DNA of 64,000 nt. Source: a virus. Lineage: Duplodnaviria; Caudoviricetes. The notes below the pieces were generated by a model. That model made no database searches, had not been told where the DNA came from, and saw only the letters and a list, made by a program, of their open reading frames with translations. The stretch lies in the IMG/VR virus record IMGVR_UViG_3300025889_000071; one strand, written 5' to 3'. Shown in pieces: positions 27,093-63,105 of this stretch (positions are counted from its first letter, which is position 1; each line of letters starts with the position of its first letter). Position numbers and translations under genes: made by a program.

Positions 27093-27167
27093 GGGCAAGT
27101 AGCTCAGTTGGATTAGAGCCACGCACTTCTAATGCGTTGGTCGGGGGTTCGAGTCCCTCCTTGCCTG
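27093..27167 (+). tRNA. tRNA-Arg(TCT)
   Basis: Acceptor GGGCAAG/CTTGCCT, anticodon loop CTTCTAA, GGTTCGAGTCC; no encoded CCA. Confidence 0.93.
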
Positions 27168-27184
27168 TTGTCCTTTTACTTCTT

Positions 27185-27379
27185 ATGGACAATTACACCT
27201 TTGGTGGAAGACCCGTAACGGGAATCAATCTTCTTTTACTCATAAGTGAGATGGAAGGTACTTATCAACATCTCAAGTATATGGGATTTGAAGAGGACAT
27301 GAAGTTCATTGATGAGATGAAGAAGAGGTATTATAAACTCTACTTCAAAACAAAGAAAGGAGAAAACAATCCTCTGTAG
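27185..27379 (+). CDS. hypothetical protein (64 aa) ending inside tRNA-Asn
   Basis: MDNYTFGGRPVTG...; TAG is tRNA nt 8-10. Confidence 0.6.
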   Translation: MDNYTFGGRPVTGINLLLLISEMEGTYQHLKYMGFEEDMKFIDEMKKRYYKLYFKTKKGENNPL

Positions 27380-27441
27380 CTCAGCGGTAGAGCCATCGAC
27401 TGTTAATCGATTGGTCGCAGGTTCGAATCCTGCCGGGGGAG
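27370..27441 (+). tRNA. tRNA-Asn(GTT)
   Basis: ATCGA-CTGTTAA-TCGAT arm, GGTTCGAATCC. Confidence 0.93.
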
Positions 27442-27443
27442 TT

Positions 27444-27515
27444 GCCTCTGTAGCACAGTGGTAGTGCAGTGCTTTTGTAAAGCAAAGGTCGCAAGTTCAA
27501 ATCTTGTCGGAGGCT
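27444..27515 (+). tRNA. tRNA-Thr(TGT)
   Basis: Acceptor GCCTCTG/CGGAGGC, loop TTTGTAA, AGTTCAAATCT. Confidence 0.88.
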
Positions 27516-27589
27516 TGACAAAATTTCGGTTTTGTCTTATATTAACATCCTTAACCTTACTCTAAATATTATTACAGGCGAGAACTAAT

Positions 27590-28060
27590 ATGGAAATTGT
27601 AGAACCTCATTCGACAATTTTAGTTCTTAATAGTTCTTATGAACCTCTTCACTTTACAAATTGGAAAAGAGCAATTATACTATTGTTCAAAGAAAAAGCA
27701 AAGTTAATATCAAAACGAGTGATTCGATTGGTAAACTATGTTATTATTCCATTTAGTAGAATGAACAATATGTATCCAACTAAAAACTTGATTTACAAGA
27801 GAGATAAAAATAAATGTCAGTATTGTGGATCGACAAAAAGTTTAACCATTGATCATGTTATTCCGCGTAGCCGTGGTGGTAAAGATACCTGGGAAAATTT
27901 AGTGGTTGCATGTTCACCTTGTAATATTAAAAAGGGTGATAAGATGCTGGAACACACTGGAATGAAGTTATCTTCAACTCCAAAAGCACCGATTAGTAAA
28001 GTCCTTATAGATTTGACTGATTCAAAAGTTCCAGAATGGCAAGAGTTTATCTTTGAATAA
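27590..28060 (+). CDS. HNH endonuclease (McrA-like, cyanobacterial type)
   Basis: LVLNSSYEPL, CQYCG..LTIDHVIPRSRGG..WENLVVACSPCN. Confidence 0.88.
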   Translation: MEIVEPHSTILVLNSSYEPLHFTNWKRAIILLFKEKAKLISKRVIRLVNYVIIPFSRMNNMYPTKNLIYKRDKNKCQYCGSTKSLTIDHVIPRSRGGKDTWENLVVACSPCNIKKGDKMLEHTGMKLSSTPKAPISKVLIDLTDSKVPEWQEFIFE

Positions 28061-28065
28061 ACACT

Positions 28066-28094
28066 TGACAAGATAATCCAAACAGGTTATACTT
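28066..28094 (+). promoter_or_regulatory. sigma70 promoter
   Basis: TTGACA-17-TATACT. Confidence 0.65.
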
Positions 28095-28149
28095 GTCTCA
28101 TGGTTAAAGGGTTTAGTTAACTAAATAATGTTACTACACCCCGTGATAC

Positions 28150-28503
28150 ATGCCATACGCAAACAAAGAAGACCGACAACGTTATCAAACTGCTTATAAA
28201 AAGGAGTATGATAAACGGTCAGATGTCAAGCAAAAACGTAAAGAATTACGTGAAGCACGTTCTAAACGAAACAAAGAGTTTGTTTTAGAACAAATGACAC
28301 CTTGTATTGTTTGTGGTGAAAATGATCCTGTGGTGATAGATTTTCATCATTTGGATCATACAGAGAAAGAGCATGGTATTAGTAAACTAATACATAATAA
28401 CTCTTCTTTAGAAAAGATTAAAACAGAGATTGACAAATGTGTTTGTCTGTGTTCTAATTGTCATCGTAGAGTCCATGCCGGAACTCTACAACTGCGGGAT
28501 TAG
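28150..28503 (+). mobile_element. HNH homing-endonuclease-like ORF overlapping tRNA-Gly
   Basis: CIVCGE..IDFHH..KCVCLCSNCHRRVH. Confidence 0.8.
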
Positions 28504-28566
28504 TTCAGTTGGTAGAACGTCAGCCTTCCAAGCTGAATGTCGTCGGTTCGAATCCGATATCCCGCT
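28494..28566 (+). tRNA. tRNA-Gly(TCC)
   Basis: Acceptor GCGGGAT/ATCCCGC, loop CTTCCAA. Confidence 0.93.
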
Positions 28567-28599
28567 TCGGTAAACCCTAAAAAGTTTTCCGTATAAATA

Positions 28600-28765
28600 C
28601 TTGTTCGTAACTTTAATGTTACGAATTACAACAAACAGAAGATGCCTCAAGTACTCGCATCAGTTTTGTTGACCGGACCACAGTAGTGTGGTATACTAAA
28701 TCTGCGATCGGGAAGTCGAGTCCGATCCATCATCTGCGGGTAACCATTCCGCAAGTAAATTTAAC
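28600..28765 (+). ncRNA. structured leader, likely manA RNA motif
   Basis: Hairpins TTCGTAAC/GTTACGAA, GATGC/GCATC, ACCACA/TGTGGT, GATCGG/CCGATC, TGCGG/CCGCA; tRNA-adjacent; resembles recalled manA core AAGTCGAGTC..CATCTGCGGGTAACCATTCCGCAAGTAA. Confidence 0.6.
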
Positions 28766-28777
28766 GAGGTATCTAAA

Positions 28778-29149
28778 ATGATCAAATCTGTATTCGCAGC
28801 AACTGCTGCTCTCTCCATGTCCGCTGGTGCTGCTTTTGCAGGTCCCTACGTGAATGTGGAAACCAATGCTGGTTGGGTTGGAGATGACTACTCCGGAGCC
28901 GTCACCGATCTGCACGTAGGTTATGAAGCTGGTCTTGGTGATTCTGCTGCATGGTATATTCAAGGTGGCCCTTCGATCGTCTCCCCTGACGGTGCAGAGT
29001 CTTCCACCGAATTCTCTGGTAAAGTCGGAGTTTCTGCTGGTCTGACCGATCAACTGTCTGCTTATGGTGAACTCTCTGCTGCTACTACTGATCAAGAGTT
29101 CGAAGATCTGAACGTTGGTGGTAAACTGGGTCTGAAGTACGCTTTCTGA
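28778..29149 (+). CDS. small outer-membrane beta-barrel-like protein
   Basis: Signal peptide to AFA, alternating beta pattern, C-terminal LGLKYAF. Confidence 0.7.
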   Translation: MIKSVFAATAALSMSAGAAFAGPYVNVETNAGWVGDDYSGAVTDLHVGYEAGLGDSAAWYIQGGPSIVSPDGAESSTEFSGKVGVSAGLTDQLSAYGELSAATTDQEFEDLNVGGKLGLKYAF

Positions 29150-29173
29150 TTTTCAGAATAAGTGCTATAATAT

Positions 29174-29198
29174 GAGGGTCTTCGGGCCCTCTTTTTTT
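29174..29198 (+). terminator. rho-independent terminator
   Basis: GAGGGTC-TTCG-GGCCCTC plus T7. Confidence 0.8.
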
Positions 29199-29381
29199 AT
29201 GAAAAAAATTTTACTATCTCCAGTCACTCACTTCAATCTTTTGATTGTAGGAACTTTAATCCTTATAGGTGTAATGCATAATCGGGCACATCATAAAATG
29301 GAAGTGGATGTTGATGGATATGCAAGACAGTTTTGTAAAAAGAATGTGGAAAAATGTAAATCTTTTATTGGTGAATATTAA
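29199..29381 (+). CDS. small membrane protein
   Basis: MKKILLSPVTHFNLLIVG. Confidence 0.55.
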   Translation: MKKILLSPVTHFNLLIVGTLILIGVMHNRAHHKMEVDVDGYARQFCKKNVEKCKSFIGEY

Positions 29382-29599
29382 TGACCGTTCCTTTTTATAT
29401 TGATATTGAGTATCAAAAGGTAGAAGTTCCTCAAGAAATTTTATCTTATTGCGATGCATTTACTACGGATGCCACTCGTGAGGAACTTCGATATCTTGAT
29501 TGTGTTTATATGAATATGGGCCTTTATGGAAATGATCCTGAACAAATGAAAGAGATGAGGAGACGTTATAACTATAATGTGCGACCTGTTTTTGATTGA
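29381..29599 (+). CDS. conserved hypothetical protein
   Basis: 72 aa. Confidence 0.6.
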   Translation: MTVPFYIDIEYQKVEVPQEILSYCDAFTTDATREELRYLDCVYMNMGLYGNDPEQMKEMRRRYNYNVRPVFD

Positions 29600-29793
29600 T
29601 GAAAAAGAAACTTAAAAGGACAATCAAAGAATTTTTCAAACCATCTGAAAAACTAAATCATGAAAGTCTATATGAAATGATTGAAAATCTTCAATATAGG
29701 ATTAGTGATATGGAAAGTGAACACATGATTATGATGTGTGAACTTCGAAAATTATATACTTTGGTCGGCAAGGAGCACACAAATGAAAATTAA
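29596..29793 (+). CDS. hypothetical protein
   Basis: 65 aa. Confidence 0.5.
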   Translation: MMKKKLKRTIKEFFKPSEKLNHESLYEMIENLQYRISDMESEHMIMMCELRKLYTLVGKEHTNEN

Positions 29794-29953
29794 TTTGTGG
29801 TACTCTAAAAGTATGAAGCAGTGGAGATGGACTCTCTGCGAAGAAACTAAAAAAGGTGCGGTATCAGAGTGTCATTCTGGCCAACAACCACTTTTAAGAG
29901 ATGCGATGGATGATGTTGCTAATACTGTTGAATACATTATTAAATCAAAATAA
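29783..29953 (+). CDS. conserved hypothetical protein
   Basis: MKINLWYSKSMKQWRWTL; AGGAG RBS. Confidence 0.6.
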   Translation: MKINLWYSKSMKQWRWTLCEETKKGAVSECHSGQQPLLRDAMDDVANTVEYIIKSK

Positions 29954-29970
29954 ATTTTATATTTTTATTC

Positions 29971-30924
29971 ATGGAAATTCCAATTTTTAATAAATCTGGC
30001 AATCAGGTAAATTCTATTCATATCTCTGACACTATTGAATATATTGATGGTAGAGTATGTAAGGGAGAAAAAAATTATTATAAGGGTATAGGGGTGCCTT
30101 ATTCTATGCATTATATACATCCAGATGATATGAATGATGAGTATGAGTATATTGATCGTCACTCTGTATTCTATATGGGCAATATAGTATCAAAAAAATG
30201 TTTTAAAGATAAATTTGGAATATTTCAAGAAAGATATCAACCTCATTTTACTGATTGGTTGGGTGCATGTGGGATTAAAGAATTGAATATTTTTGAGAAT
30301 CTTTATGATGAAGGTGGTTTTGAAATGAATTCTATTGAAATTTTAGATAGAGAAGTTATAGATAAAGATAATGAACAATATTATCTCAAAGTAAATTATC
30401 TAGATGGTAGGGGAAATTATTTAAGTAATCCACAACCAAAAAACTTAAGGATATTGCTTGATTATATGATTCAAAGTGATTGGAATTTTCCATGGGATAA
30501 AAATTCAATAACAGATATTTCAACAAAATCCAAAGTGTCTGATGTTGCAGACATTTTTAAATCAAAAGAATTGAAACATAAAATAGGTAGCATTTATTCT
30601 GTTCTCTATAGTTTGTATCATTCTGACAAGAAAGAATATCATAAATTCTGTGATGTGAATGGATTGCAACATGTGAATCAAATGAGCTTTGTTTTCAATA
30701 CAATATCATTATTGGTTTTTAATAAAGTTGACATTTCAGAAATTACTTTCAAAAATCCTGTGGAATCATATAAGCACATTGTTTTGAATTATTTGATTGA
30801 CGGCAAAAATTGTGGATTTTGTGGAGTTGGTAGTTGTAAAGGTAGGAAAGATAGTAATCAATCTTATGGAGAAGAGATTAGAGATGAATATGTTAGAATG
30901 ACAAGACAGCAATTGAAAGTATAA
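29971..30924 (+). CDS. AT-rich hypothetical protein
   Basis: 317-aa ORF, C-terminal CGFCGVGSC. Confidence 0.65.
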   Translation: MEIPIFNKSGNQVNSIHISDTIEYIDGRVCKGEKNYYKGIGVPYSMHYIHPDDMNDEYEYIDRHSVFYMGNIVSKKCFKDKFGIFQERYQPHFTDWLGACGIKELNIFENLYDEGGFEMNSIEILDREVIDKDNEQYYLKVNYLDGRGNYLSNPQPKNLRILLDYMIQSDWNFPWDKNSITDISTKSKVSDVADIFKSKELKHKIGSIYSVLYSLYHSDKKEYHKFCDVNGLQHVNQMSFVFNTISLLVFNKVDISEITFKNPVESYKHIVLNYLIDGKNCGFCGVGSCKGRKDSNQSYGEEIRDEYVRMTRQQLKV

Positions 30925-30959
30925 ATAAATTTAAAATTGAAGAAGTTCAGAACAATACA

Positions 30960-31217
30960 ATGGAAAATATAAAAATTAGATGTCGCTCCTGTGGTAGGGA
31001 GTTGGAGGGACATCAGAATAAGACGGTTTCTTGTGGATGTCCAAACATGGCAACTATTCGTGGTGATAGAGTTTCAGCAGTTGACTTATCTGAAGTTGTT
31101 ATGCTAAACTCTTATCAATCCCAAAATAAAAAGGGAGTTCTGTCACAACAAGATATTCAGTGGCAGGAGCAAAGACGACAACGTAAAGTTCGTAAATTGG
31201 ACTTTGAGGTTCGTTGA
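30960..31217 (+). CDS. conserved zinc-ribbon-like hypothetical protein
   Basis: CRSC..CGC motif; TATAAATA at 30921. Confidence 0.7.
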   Translation: MENIKIRCRSCGRELEGHQNKTVSCGCPNMATIRGDRVSAVDLSEVVMLNSYQSQNKKGVLSQQDIQWQEQRRQRKVRKLDFEVR

Positions 31218-31220
31218 ATT

Positions 31221-31303
31221 GGAGAGAGTCCGGTTGGTCGAGGACACCGCCTTGAAAGCGGCTGGGGGTAACACCTTCGCAGGTTCGATTCCTGTTCTCT
31301 CCG
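31221..31303 (+). tRNA. tRNA-Ser(TGA)
   Basis: Acceptor GGAGAGA/TCTCTCC, loop CTTGAAA, long variable arm. Confidence 0.9.
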
Positions 31304-31306
31304 TTT

Positions 31307-31380
31307 CGGGCATTAGCGCAGTTTGGTAGCGCGTTCCGTTTGGGGCGGAAAGGTCATAGGTTCAAATCCTATATGCCCGA
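31307..31380 (+). tRNA. tRNA-Pro(TGG)
   Basis: TTCCG-TTTGGGG-CGGAA arm; acceptor CGGGCAT/ATGCCCG. Confidence 0.92.
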
Positions 31381-55664: not shown

Positions 55665-55699
55665 AAATAAATCAACGACAAAGAAGTTTACATTTCTTA

Positions 55700-55825
55700 A
55701 CCGTTGGAACACACCCCGCAAACCGAGACCTCTAGGGTGTCTAAATCACGTCTCTTATATCCCAAGGCGAGGGGTCTTGGGAAATAGTAACTCCACCATG
55801 TCCCTGATGGTCTTACTTAAATTTC
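55700..55825 (+). ncRNA. structured psbA 5' leader, likely PhotoRC-II motif
   Basis: GAGAC/GTCTC, CCCAAG/CTTGGG, CCAT/ATGG stems in front of psbA. Confidence 0.5.
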
Positions 55826-62495: not shown

Positions 62496-62537
62496 GTATC
62501 AAATGATACACAACAAAAGTACTTGACTAAATAAGGT
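62496..62537 (+). promoter_or_regulatory. NtcA-consensus box with class II spacing
   Basis: GTA-TCAAATGA-TAC, then exactly 22 nt, then TAAGGT (TAN3T). Confidence 0.6.
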
Positions 62538-62551
62538 ATAAGGTCTATAAT
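62523..62551 (+). promoter_or_regulatory. sigma70 promoter
   Basis: TTGACT-17-TATAAT. Confidence 0.8.
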
Positions 62552-62559
62552 AGACCTGT

Positions 62560-62843
62560 CGTTCATCCAAGAGGCAGTCGCTGTGCACATAGCATAGAAA
62601 GACACATCTGGACGCAAGTAAGTCGCGGAACGGAGCGTTCATCCTATGATTGAGTTACTACTATTAGCTAATTTACATAGTCCTCCAAACATGACTTGTC
62701 AGCAAGTTAGAGAGGTGGCAGAAACCGTACTGGATTCTGATATGTCTCAACAAGATAAGCAAAGATTCTTATCTCGTTTGTTTGGACAGCATATGATGCT
62801 AAAGTGTCTTAAGAAATAGGACGCACACGACTGAAGGAACGGG
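62560..62843 (+). ncRNA. glutamine-riboswitch-like RNA (glnA/Downstream-peptide class) with ORF in P3 loop
   Basis: CGTTC/GAACG P1, TCC/GGA P2, CGCAAGTA, AGTCG/CGACT P3, GAAG. Confidence 0.65.
62646..62819 (+). CDS. 57-aa ORF nested in riboswitch-like RNA
   Basis: MIELLLLANLHSPPNMTCQQ...MLKCLKK; GGAG RBS at 62632. Confidence 0.6.
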   Translation: MIELLLLANLHSPPNMTCQQVREVAETVLDSDMSQQDKQRFLSRLFGQHMMLKCLKK

Positions 62844-62879
62844 AGATTAAATTCACCCTAGTATTTCAGGAGAAACACA

Positions 62880-63047
62880 ATGAATACACTTCTCATGATC
62901 AAGAAGCAGATCGACAAAGCATCTGCACTTCACGACGCTCAAATTGCTCATACTGCATATCGTGGTGTTGAGTATAACGTATGTGGTCATGAACCACATG
63001 AGACTCACGGTACATTCTGCTATCGTGGTCATACTTATAACAAGTGA
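62880..63047 (+). CDS. DUF4278-like small protein (55 aa)
   Basis: Two YRG motifs (AYRGVEY, CYRGHTY); AGGAG RBS. Confidence 0.7.
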   Translation: MNTLLMIKKQIDKASALHDAQIAHTAYRGVEYNVCGHEPHETHGTFCYRGHTYNK

Positions 63048-63070
63048 ATTACTTGTATTAGAATGCATAG

Positions 63071-63105
63071 GAGAGGTTGACTACCTCTCTTTTTTTGTCT
63101 ATAAT
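63071..63105 (+). terminator. terminator with nested sigma70 promoter
   Basis: GAGAGGT/ACCTCTC plus T run; TTGACT-17-TATAAT. Confidence 0.7.

What the first reader, a model, noticed from the sequence alone, without database searches (positions are those of the whole stretch)
62560..62843. Glutamine-riboswitch-like aptamer with an entire ORF nested inside it and duplicated switch elements
The RNA starts right at the predicted TSS and matches the glnA-class layout: P1 CGTTC(62560)/GAACG(62837), P2 TCC/GGA(62610), CGCAAGTA, P3 AGTCG(62621)/CGACT(62828), GAAG. The 202-nt P3 loop contains a 57-codon ORF (62646-62819) closed by its own TCCTA/TAGGA stem at the start and stop codons. CGTTCATCC, GGACGCA and GGAACGG each occur twice, so the inner GAACG-GAG-CGTTC can form a hairpin over the ORF's GGAG RBS or swap partners with the outer P1. 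Ligand binding and translation of the nested ORF could therefore be mutually coupled, controlling both small proteins. I know no description of this architecture.
Basis: partly seen in the sequence, partly recalled or inferred. Interest (0 to 1): 0.88.

Follow-up and report, generated by a model that had tools for sequence, protein, structure and literature searches.

The report
Gene-carrying nested double glutamine riboswitch
A cyanophage mRNA leader folds as one split glutamine-riboswitch-type structure: a second, similar junction sits inside its third helix and a real small protein gene sits inside a helix loop. This layout recurs in hundreds of phage contigs, and published work files such elements as plain tandem riboswitches.

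Summary
The long-range structure is supported by compensatory changes in about 300 related cyanophage elements.

- **Architecture.** Two glnA-type half-units, A and B, form one nested fold.
  - The outer P1 pairs CGUUC (62560) with GAACG (62837).
  - P3 pairs AGUCG (62621) with CGACU (62828).
  - An inner GAACG/CGUUC hairpin, P2b and J2/3b form a second junction inside P3.
- **E-loop.** Unit A carries AAGUA but no GAAG. Unit B carries GAAG but no AGUA. The E-loop therefore exists only across the two units.
- **Covariation.** It fits the nested fold and rules out independent local folds:
  - P3 strands change together.
  - The inner closing pair is G-C or C-G, and no true element has a mixed combination.
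  - The outer closing pair is C-G or U-A.
  - Both "linchpin" tertiary pairs also follow the nested partners.
- **Nested ORF.** ORF 62646-62819 is a real gene (median dN/dS 0.19, two invariant Cys, 391 clusters). It is closed by a covarying P2b stem. 90% of 221 distinct elements carry such a gene in P2a, P2b or both.
- **Expression platform.** CUGAAG (62831-62836) can instead pair with UUUCAG (62864-62869), which overlaps the Shine-Dalgarno sequence of the downstream DUF4278-like gene.

Glutamine binding and the regulatory logic are inferred, not shown. P1 strand swapping as a required mechanism is not supported. I rate this a new variant of the glutamine-I riboswitch.

The parts
62523..62551 (+). 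Sigma-70-type promoter (TTGACT-17-TATAAT); the start of transcription falls about 62558, 2 nt before the outer P1
   Evidence: 11 of 12 matches; the same promoter position is seen in relatives
62560..62564 (+). Outer P1, 5' strand CGUUC (unit A); pairs with 62837-62841
   Evidence: RNAalifold predicts this pairing in ORF-free relatives. The closing pair C-G changes to U-A in strict step: CGTTT always goes with AAACG.
62566..62612 (+). P2a hairpin (UCCA/UGGA stem, 39-nt loop). In other phages this loop is a tetraloop or holds a gene.
   Evidence: Covariation of P2a pairs. The same 47-nt version occurs in L002 and L041.
62613..62620 (+). J2/3a CGCAAGUA. C62615 is the outer linchpin base (partner G62842). 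AAGUA is the 5' half of the E-loop.
   Evidence: Match to the Rfam RF01739 consensus. Linchpin covariation: C-G 219, G-C 81, other 2.
62621..62625 (+). P3, 5' strand AGUCG; pairs with 62828-62832 across 202 nt
   Evidence: Compensatory changes between the A and B strands: AGUCA/UGACU; in the 8-bp form, pair 8 is U-A, A-U or G-C; GGACGACG/CGCCGCCC
62628..62640 (+). Inner hairpin P1': GAACG (62628-62632), loop GAG (62633-62635), CGUUC (62636-62640). G62633 is the inner linchpin partner of C62824.
   Evidence: At least 120 loci have GGAACGG..CGTTCA and at least 120 have GCAACGG..CGTTGA. The 6 mixed hits are all unrelated DNA. RNAalifold predicts this hairpin.
62642..62646 (+). P2b, 5' strand UCCUA; its last base is the A of the nested ORF's AUG
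   Evidence: Pairs 3-5 covary with the 3' strand across about 150-170 nt
62646..62819 (+). Nested gene: 57 aa, two invariant Cys (C18, C54), predicted three helices, function unknown
   Evidence: ORF; median dN/dS 0.19 and other frames closed in 184 of 185; 391 clusters found with the family profile; AF2 pLDDT 79; no Pfam, PDB or Atlas name
62817..62821 (+). P2b, 3' strand UAGGA; contains the nested ORF's UAG stop
62822..62827 (+). J2/3b CGCACA of the inner junction (no AGUA); C62824 is the inner linchpin base
   Evidence: inner linchpin C-G 290, G-C 3, other 9
62828..62832 (+). P3, 3' strand CGACU
62833..62836 (+). GAAG, the 3' half of the E-loop; present only in unit B
   Evidence: GAAG or AAAG in all elements
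62837..62842 (+). Outer P1, 3' strand GAACG, plus G62842 (linchpin partner of C62615)
62864..62872 (+). UUUCAG (62864-62869), an alternative partner of CUGAAG (62831-62836). It overlaps the Shine-Dalgarno AGGAG (62868-62872) of the downstream gene.
   Evidence: The variable pair is G-U 79, G-C 73, A-U 59, A.C 2, G.A 2; Fisher p = 1e-11. The helix appears in the single-sequence MFE fold.
62880..63047 (+). Downstream regulated gene: 55 aa, DUF4278-like (IF17-like), two YRG motifs
   Evidence: Pfam PF14105, E = 5.9e-4, 20.6 bits, below the 25.3 cut-off. Relatives begin MAQVTYRGV.
63069..63091 (+). Intrinsic terminator that closes the transcription unit

Best explanation
The 5' part of this phage transcript (about 62558-62880) is one composite riboswitch of the glutamine-I (glnA RNA) type, built from two half-units.

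**Outer junction.** Unit A supplies the P1 5' strand, P2a, J2/3 with AAGUA, and the P3 5' strand. Unit B supplies the P3 3' strand, GAAG and the P1 3' strand. Together they form a complete canonical aptamer: P1, P2, E-loop, P3 and a C-G linchpin.

**Inner junction.** The far end of P3 opens into a second three-way junction with the same cyclic order: the hairpin GAACG/CGUUC acts as P1', followed by A, P2b and CGCACA. It has its own linchpin pair but no E-loop.

**Nested gene.** The loop of P2b holds a real 57-aa gene. Its AUG lies in the P2b 5' strand and its stop in the P2b 3' strand.

**Inferred mechanism.** L-glutamine stabilises the outer junction, and possibly the inner one. That holds CUGAAG in P3 and the E-loop. 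It cannot then pair with UUUCAG, so the Shine-Dalgarno sequence of the DUF4278-like gene is free and the gene is translated (an ON switch, as shown for gifB by Klaehn et al. 2018, PMC6212724). The same fold buries the start region of the nested gene, so that gene is translated mainly from unfolded or nascent RNA. A ribosome on it would in turn melt P2b, P3 and the E-loop.

**Shown versus inferred.** Shown here: the nested secondary structure, the alternative anti-SD helix (both by covariation), and the coding status of the ORF. Inferred: the ligand, the direction of the switch, and the opposite control of the two genes.
For: 1. **P3 between units.** In 16 ORF-free relatives, 4 of the 8 P3 pairs show compensatory changes and 0 of 500 shuffles reach the observed score. 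Among 221 elements, AGUCG/CGACU changes to AGUCA/UGACU, and pair 8 of the 8-bp form is U-A, A-U or G-C. The local mini-hairpin AG-CCGA-CU that Rfam's model draws is broken in these variants.
2. **Inner hairpin.** GGAACGG..CGTTCA occurs in at least 120 loci and GCAACGG..CGTTGA in at least 120. The mixed forms give 4 and 2 hits, all unrelated GC-rich DNA.
3. **Outer P1.** All 13 distinct true elements with CGTTT in unit A have AAACG in unit B, and the reverse holds.
4. **Linchpin pairs** (the G23-C60 role is taken from PMC11477058).
   - Outer: C-G 219, G-C 81, other 2.
   - Inner: C-G 290, G-C 3, other 9.
   - Local partners would give G.G in 69 and C.C in 77.
5. RNAalifold alone predicts the outer P1, the inner hairpin, P2a and P2b.
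6. Every B-type unit with upstream sequence has an A-type unit. The linker between them is 2-5 nt.
7. P2b pairs 3-5 covary across the ORF.
8. The anti-SD helix covaries and appears in the MFE fold.
9. The ORF is coding.
10. The downstream gene is DUF4278-like, the usual cargo of glutamine riboswitches (PMC6212724).
Against:
- Rfam's glutamine models do not reach threshold on the window: 15 and 13.7 bits against 35 and 33.
- The CGUUC/GAACG cores are nearly invariant, so P1 support rests on one pair per helix plus the linchpins.
- The shuffle and Fisher statistics are not corrected for phylogeny. The outer U-A variant may be a single lineage.
- If ribosomes on the nested ORF melt the anti-SD helix, the downstream gene could be translated whatever the glutamine level. 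That would blur a simple ON switch.
- With a 2-nt linker, the inner hairpin loop may be too short for the inner linchpin to form (my steric reasoning, not computed).
Confidence: 0.7

Rival explanations
1. Two ordinary, independent glutamine riboswitches in tandem ('pseudo-cooperative' doublet). Each folds locally (CGUUC-a with GAACG-a, CGUUC-b with GAACG-b). The first controls the nested ORF and the second controls the DUF4278-like gene.
For: - Rfam's model aligns each unit locally. Unit A scores 15-32 bits. Unit B scores 34-38 bits in relatives with a short P2b, about the gathering score.
- The literature lists glutamine doublets this way (PMC9481103; PMC2864571).
- In the window itself both pairings are possible, because the duplicated strands are identical.
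Against: - Neither unit is complete: A lacks GAAG and B lacks AGUA.
- The P3 strands covary between units, not within them.
- Local P1 pairing would be mismatched in 80 of 221 elements.
- Local linchpins would be G.G or C.C in about 70-77 of 302 elements.
- 36 of 221 elements have no ORF in P2b, so unit A would have nothing of its own to control.
Confidence: 0.06
2. The nested structure is real but does not sense glutamine. It senses another ligand, binds a protein, or is simply a stability or processing element for the two small genes.
For: - No binding data exist.
- The inner junction lacks the E-loop.
- P3 is not a hairpin as in validated aptamers.
- Scores lie below the Rfam thresholds.
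Against: - Nearly all conserved positions of the glutamine-I core are kept in the outer junction: CGUUCA, GGACG, AAGUA, GAAGGAACG. The single change in the window, J2/3 C62615 in place of the consensus G, is matched by G62842.
- The linchpin covaries as in the solved aptamer (PMC11477058; PMC7657543).
- The C-G linchpin form is that of the Rfam glutamine-II consensus.
- The cargo gene is DUF4278-like, as for validated glutamine riboswitches (PMC6212724).
Confidence: 0.15
3. The nested ORF is only a regulatory leader peptide (as mgtL is in the Salmonella mgtA leader). Its act of translation matters and its product does not.
For: - Start and stop codons sit in structural strands.
- In most relatives the stop (UGA or UAA) lies exactly at the P3/E-loop boundary (GAC UGA AGG), and ORFs in P2a often stop at the UAA of AAGUAA.
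- Ribosomes and the aptamer fold therefore exclude each other.
Against: - Median dN/dS is 0.19 over 1355 pairs.
- There are two invariant Cys, a conserved helix pattern and a confident three-helix model.
- The family has 391 clusters of 50-90 aa.
- 23 of 221 elements work without any ORF.

A dual role, protein plus coupling, remains possible.
Confidence: 0.07

Closest known systems
Glutamine-I riboswitch / glnA RNA (Rfam RF01739; Weinberg 2010 PMC2864571; Klaehn 2018 PMC6212724; structure by Ren 2015 as reviewed in PMC11477058)
   Same: - P1 CGUUC/GAACG, a single A, then P2
- J2/3 CG(G/C)AAGUA with GAAG, forming the E-loop
- P3 stacked beyond the E-loop
- A linchpin pair between J2/3 and the base after P1
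- Sits upstream of a DUF4278 / IF17-like gene
- A probable anti-SD expression platform
   Different: - P3 is not a hairpin. It is a helix between two half-units about 200 nt apart (up to about 800 nt in relatives with an HNH gene inserted).
- P3 encloses a second junction.
- P2 loops carry protein genes.
- The window form has the C-G rather than the G-C linchpin.
- The Rfam model scores it at 15 bits against a gathering score of 35.
Tandem ('doublet') glutamine riboswitches as catalogued by Sherlock et al. 2022 (PMC9481103) and noted by Weinberg et al. 2010
   Same: Two glnA-like units lie head to tail behind one promoter. These phage elements are very probably among the catalogued doublets, and L108 is a triplet.
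   Different: - The catalogue treats the units as separate riboswitches and, in Table 1, lists them under multiple expression platforms.
- Here the units are incomplete on their own, share P3 and the E-loop, pair P1 strands crosswise (outer and inner), and have one expression platform.
Glutamine-II riboswitch / Downstream-peptide motif (RF01704), the type found in marine Synechococcus and Prochlorococcus hosts
   Same: CGUUCA, CGCA and GGAACGG, with a C-G linchpin form and DUF4278 cargo. The inner junction, like glutamine-II, has no E-loop.
   Different: Glutamine-II is an H-type pseudoknot with GGAACG in a hairpin loop. Here both junctions are three-way junctions. The window scores 13.7 bits against 33.
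Tandem glycine riboswitch (two aptamers, one expression platform)
   Same: Two homologous ligand-type junctions in one fold act on a single expression platform.
   Different: The glycine aptamers are each complete and touch through tertiary contacts. Here the two junctions share a helix and are nested, and genes sit inside them.
ORFs inside structured RNAs: mgtL in the Salmonella mgtA Mg2+ leader; homing-endonuclease ORFs in loops of group I introns (from general knowledge)
   Same: A reading frame lies inside a functional RNA fold, so translation and folding can interfere. Peripheral loops tolerate large insertions; in the S-H68-type phages an HNH gene sits in the inner hairpin loop.
   Different: The nested ORF is a conserved 45-67 aa protein family. 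It is neither a short leader peptide nor a mobility enzyme, and it occupies a core aptamer helix (P2).

Membership tests
Glutamine-I riboswitch (glnA RNA, RF01739) | P1 helix CGUUC/GAACG closing a three-way junction | tested here: met
   62560-62564 with 62837-41. The partners are established by C-G to U-A covariation and by exclusion of local partners.
Glutamine-I riboswitch (glnA RNA, RF01739) | P2 hairpin one A after P1, followed by CG(G/C) | tested here: met
   62566-62612. P2a covaries.
Glutamine-I riboswitch (glnA RNA, RF01739) | E-loop formed by AAGUA (J2/3) and GAAG (J3/1) | tested here: met
   Both halves are present (62616-62620 and 62833-62836) but on different half-units. This split is conserved in all elements parsed. 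Formation of the E-loop itself was not tested.
Glutamine-I riboswitch (glnA RNA, RF01739) | Short local P3 hairpin (about 10 nt in the Rfam model) | tested here: not met
   P3 is a long-range helix (62621-25 with 62828-32) that encloses 202 nt. The local mini-hairpin reading is broken in covarying variants.
Glutamine-I riboswitch (glnA RNA, RF01739) | Linchpin Watson-Crick pair between J2/3 and the base 3' of P1 | tested here: met
   C62615 with G62842. Family-wide: C-G 219, G-C 81, other 2.
Glutamine-I riboswitch (glnA RNA, RF01739) | Score at or above Rfam's gathering threshold | tested here: not met
   No match at gathering score. 15 bits against 35 on 62558-62636 only. Relatives with a short P2b reach 34-38 bits for unit B.
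Glutamine-I riboswitch (glnA RNA, RF01739) | Selective binding of L-glutamine | not testable with these tools
   Needs in-line probing or ITC.
Glutamine-I riboswitch (glnA RNA, RF01739) | Lies in the 5' UTR of a nitrogen-related or DUF4278 gene | tested here: met
   ORF 62880-63047 matches PF14105 with E = 5.9e-4, 20.6 bits, below the 25.3 cut-off. Relatives encode MAQVTYRGV... proteins.
Glutamine-II riboswitch (RF01704) | H-type pseudoknot with GGAACG in the loop of a 3' hairpin; score at or above 33 bits | tested here: not met
   13.7 bits with a forced 3-bp hairpin. Covariation supports three-way junctions instead.
Independent tandem riboswitches | Each aptamer is complete and folds on its own, with its own expression platform | tested here: not met
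   Half-units are incomplete. P3, P1 and linchpin partners are crosswise. There is one anti-SD platform.
Leader-peptide (uORF) attenuator | A short ORF whose translation, not its product, controls the structure | tested here: inconclusive
   The product is under purifying selection, so it is more than a leader. The positions of its start and stop in structural strands leave coupling possible.

The most novel reading that the evidence does not exclude
The element is a single-fold glutamine sensor with two binding sites. The outer (glutamine-I-like) and inner (E-loop-less) junctions each bind glutamine and are coupled through the shared P3. One ligand signal then sets two genes in opposite directions: the DUF4278-like gene on and the nested two-Cys gene off. 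Ribosomes on the nested gene, which in most relatives stop exactly at the P3/E-loop boundary, feed translation status back into the sensor.
Probability: 0.25. Interest if true: 0.92.

Novelty: new variant of a known kind. Interest (0 to 1): 0.78.

Why it matters
- **Reinterpretation.** An abundant set of phage elements, probably among the 'tandem' glutamine riboswitches in published catalogues, appears to be one interlocked fold and not two sensors in series. That changes how their dose-response should be modelled.
- **Detection.** Models that expect a local P3 miss these elements or score them at or below threshold: below in the window, about the gathering score for unit B in relatives with a short P2b.
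- **RNA architecture.** An aptamer can be split by hundreds of nucleotides, and can carry protein genes (or an HNH gene) inside core helices, yet keep its pairing. This gives a natural system for studying how co-transcriptional folding, translation and ligand sensing compete.
- **Biology.** The element places a nitrogen-status sensor, an IF17-like protein and an unknown two-Cys protein family in one cyanophage transcription unit. This bears on how phages read or reset host nitrogen metabolism.

Tried and rejected
- **Rfam, gathering threshold, whole window.** No glutamine hit. The permissive search finds only unit A, locally, at 15 and 13.7 bits.
- **Own covariance model.** R1 was built from 16 ORF-free relatives with the nested structure. 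It cannot bridge the 170-nt ORF and returns two half-matches of about 19 bits in the window, so it gave no 'with and without loop' comparison. Spliced sequences cannot be passed to the Infernal tools.
- **Single-sequence MFE of 62558-62885**. z = -3.8, but it pairs the 5' strand with the 3' tail. It shows only the inner hairpin and the anti-SD helix.
- **Local P3 mini-hairpin (AG-CCGA-CU), as drawn by Rfam's alignment.** Rejected by AGCCGACA/UGCCGACU and GGACGACG/CGCCGCCC variants.
- **Local (tandem) P1 pairing.** Rejected as the conserved fold.
- **Strand swapping as a required switch.** Not supported, for the same reason.
- **GGAG as the ribosome-binding site of the nested ORF.** Present in only 51% of ORF-bearing relatives.
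- **Function of the nested protein.** No Pfam hit. The PHROGs call failed on a bad coordinate and was not repeated. No PDB fold match, and only unnamed viral clusters in the Atlas.
- **Word-indexed homology search.** Only 4 close relatives; the profile search was needed.
- **Literature.** Ames & Breaker 2011 and Ren et al. 2015 are not held. An earlier description in those papers cannot be excluded.
- **Bacterial genomes.** The 10 hits are all MAG, SAG or draft contigs, at least some likely phage DNA. Their origin was not checked.

Full report
**Context**

The window is from a T4-like cyanomyovirus. It carries a PhotoRC-II RNA, six tRNA genes and a ThyX gene at its end. The region of the finding is one small transcription unit:
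- a near-consensus promoter at 62523-62551
- a structured leader with an embedded 57-codon ORF (62646-62819)
- a 55-codon ORF (62880-63047)
- a terminator at 63069-63091

**Observation**

Rfam does not call the element at its gathering scores. A permissive scan aligns only 62557-62639, as a local aptamer without P3. It scores 15 bits for Glutamine (gathering score 35) and 13.7 bits for Glutamine-II (gathering score 33).

**Relatives**

The region matches 419 phage records, all cyanophages. Seven annotated relatives show the same order of motifs. Pattern scans of IMG/VR gave several hundred more loci. The general element has two glnA-like units, A then B, behind one promoter. It lies upstream of a DUF4278-like gene (relatives begin MAQVTYRGV).

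Unit A always has AAGUA but no GAAG. Unit B has GAAG (or AAAG) but no AGUA. Every B-type unit with upstream sequence is preceded by an A-type unit. The two are 2-5 nt apart, except where an HNH gene is inserted.

**The fold is nested, not two local aptamers**

Four independent sets of compensatory changes show this.

1. *P3 forms between the units.*
   - AGUCG/CGACU changes to AGUCA/UGACU.
   - In the 8-bp form (AGCCGACU with AGCCGACU, two A.C mismatches), pair 8 is U-A, A-U or G-C.
   - GGACGACG pairs with CGCCGCCC.
   - On 16 ORF-free relatives, the nested structure is 95% paired, 4 of the 8 P3 pairs change on both sides, and no shuffle of 500 reaches the observed score.
   - The local mini-hairpin that Rfam's model draws is broken in these variants.
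2. *The inner hairpin.* GGAACGG..CGTTCA and GCAACGG..CGTTGA each occur in at least 120 loci. The two mixed forms gave 4 and 2 hits, all unrelated GC-rich coding DNA.
3. *The outer P1.* All 13 distinct true elements with CGTTT in unit A have AAACG in unit B, and the reverse holds, across 280-900 nt.
4. *The linchpin tertiary pair.* In the solved aptamer, J2/3 G23 pairs with C60 just after P1 (PMC11477058, reviewing Ren 2015).
   - Here J2/3a pairs with the base after GAACG-b: C-G 219, G-C 81, other 2.
   - J2/3b pairs with the base after GAACG-a: C-G 290, G-C 3, other 9.
   - Local partners would give G.G in 69 elements and C.C in 77.

RNAalifold on its own also predicts the outer P1, the inner hairpin and both P2 stems.

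The outer junction therefore has every canonical glutamine-I part. The inner junction has the same cyclic order (P1', A, P2b, CGCA.., P3) but no E-loop.

**The nested ORF**

Among 221 distinct elements, the distribution of ORFs in P2 loops is:

| Location of ORF | Elements |
|---|---|
| P2b only | 158 |
| Both P2 loops | 27 |
| P2a only | 13 |
| Neither | 23 |

- The start codon lies 3-5 nt after CGUUCA, inside the P2 5' strand.
- P2b pairs 3-5 covary across the ORF: pair 4 is C-G 127, U-A 40, U-G 11, A-U 6.
- In most relatives the frame reads through UGG GAC GCA AAC GAC UGA, giving a C-terminal WDAND. It therefore stops exactly at the P3/E-loop boundary.
- In the window it stops earlier, at the UAG in the P2b 3' strand.
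- The interior of the ORF has a median dN/dS of 0.19 over 1355 pairs, and the other frames are closed in 184 of 185.
- Two Cys are invariant.
- A profile of the family finds 391 clusters, nearly all 50-90 aa.
- AlphaFold predicts three helices at pLDDT 79.
- No named family or fold matches.

It is a real gene of unknown function.

**Expression platform**

The hexamer CU(G/A)AAG is the last two P3 bases plus the E-loop strand. It is complementary to a hexamer that ends 9-11 nt before the downstream AUG and overlaps the Shine-Dalgarno sequence. The variable pair is G-U 79, G-C 73, A-U 59, A.C 2 and G.A 2 (Fisher p = 1e-11, uncorrected for phylogeny).

In the window this is 62831-62836 with 62864-62869, and it appears in the MFE fold. 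Aptamer folding and SD sequestration are thus mutually exclusive. This predicts a glutamine ON switch like that shown for gifB (PMC6212724). It is inference, and no binding or expression data could be had.

**What is not supported**

- Swapping of P1 partners cannot be a conserved requirement. Many elements carry changes that would mismatch the local pairing.
- The GGAG ahead of the nested ORF is present in only half of the ORF-bearing relatives.

**Comparison with the literature**

- Glutamine riboswitch hits in cyanophages are known as Rfam annotations (PMC9964418).
- Tandem glnA RNAs were noted in 2010 (PMC2864571).
- They were counted in 2022 as 157 doublets and 4 triplets, described as pseudo-cooperative and, in Table 1, listed under multiple expression platforms (PMC9481103).
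- I found no description of a shared P3, crosswise P1 or genes inside P2.

**Verdict**

The regulatory reading remains a hypothesis. I class it as a new variant of the glutamine-I riboswitch and rate its interest as high for RNA biology.

Noticed in passing
window 62496-62509: GTATCAAATGATAC, an NtcA-type GTA-N8-TAC palindrome, lies upstream of the promoter. A GTA-N8-(T/A)AC box lies 53-61 nt before CGTTCA in about 40% of 212 related loci, against 5% of random 100-nt windows. This suggests transcriptional nitrogen control on top of the riboswitch.
   Followed up: partly
L005:696-1268 (S-H68); also RN05-S, RB11-B, S-B43, L163, L294, L295, L312, L314, L315: A gene of about 570 nt sits exactly in the loop of the inner GAACG/CGUUC hairpin, between the two half-units. 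It is annotated as an HNH endonuclease in RN05-S and RB11-B but as a hypothetical protein in S-H68. It stretches the outer helices to about 800-900 nt apart, and outer P1 covariation still holds in these loci.
   Followed up: partly
L001, L003, L004 and the CGTTT/AAACG lineage: about 45 nt after GAACG-b: An extra module of the type AACGGAUCC-[GNRA-capped hairpin]-GAGAAGGUUAA is inserted between the riboswitch and the Shine-Dalgarno region. It looks like the P3 hairpin plus GAAGG strand of a canonical glnA aptamer, possibly a remnant or a third partial unit.
   Followed up: no
L108:6440-6880: A triplet arrangement: an A-type unit with the 8-nt P3 strand and no partner, then an A-type unit with an ORF, then a B-type unit. 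The last two pair AGUCA with UGACU. It looks like a recombinant between the two P3 classes.
   Followed up: no
window 62566-62612 (P2a loop); same in L002, L041: The 39-nt P2a loop contains a small internal hairpin (GCUGUGCACAUAGC) followed by AUAG. It may be a relic of a deleted ORF; in Sf-FS3 (L004) the same loop holds a full 66-codon ORF of the family.
   Followed up: no
L338-L457: A second large clade, whose source was not checked, has the same nested architecture but the canonical CGGAAGUA...GAACGC (G-C) outer linchpin. It also has a longer DUF4278-type cargo with several YRG repeats.
   Followed up: partly
window 55698-55795 and 27093-31380: A PhotoRC-II RNA (73.7 bits) and six tRNA genes reach Rfam gathering scores. 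This is ordinary cyanomyovirus content.
   Followed up: no
L128-L137: The motif occurs in 10 contigs of 'bacterial' MAGs, SAGs or draft genomes. The labels include Verrucomicrobiota, Euryarchaeota, Nonlabens, and Prochlorococcus and Synechococcus bins with contigs of about 190 kb. At least some are probably cyanophage DNA binned or co-sequenced with cells.
   Followed up: no
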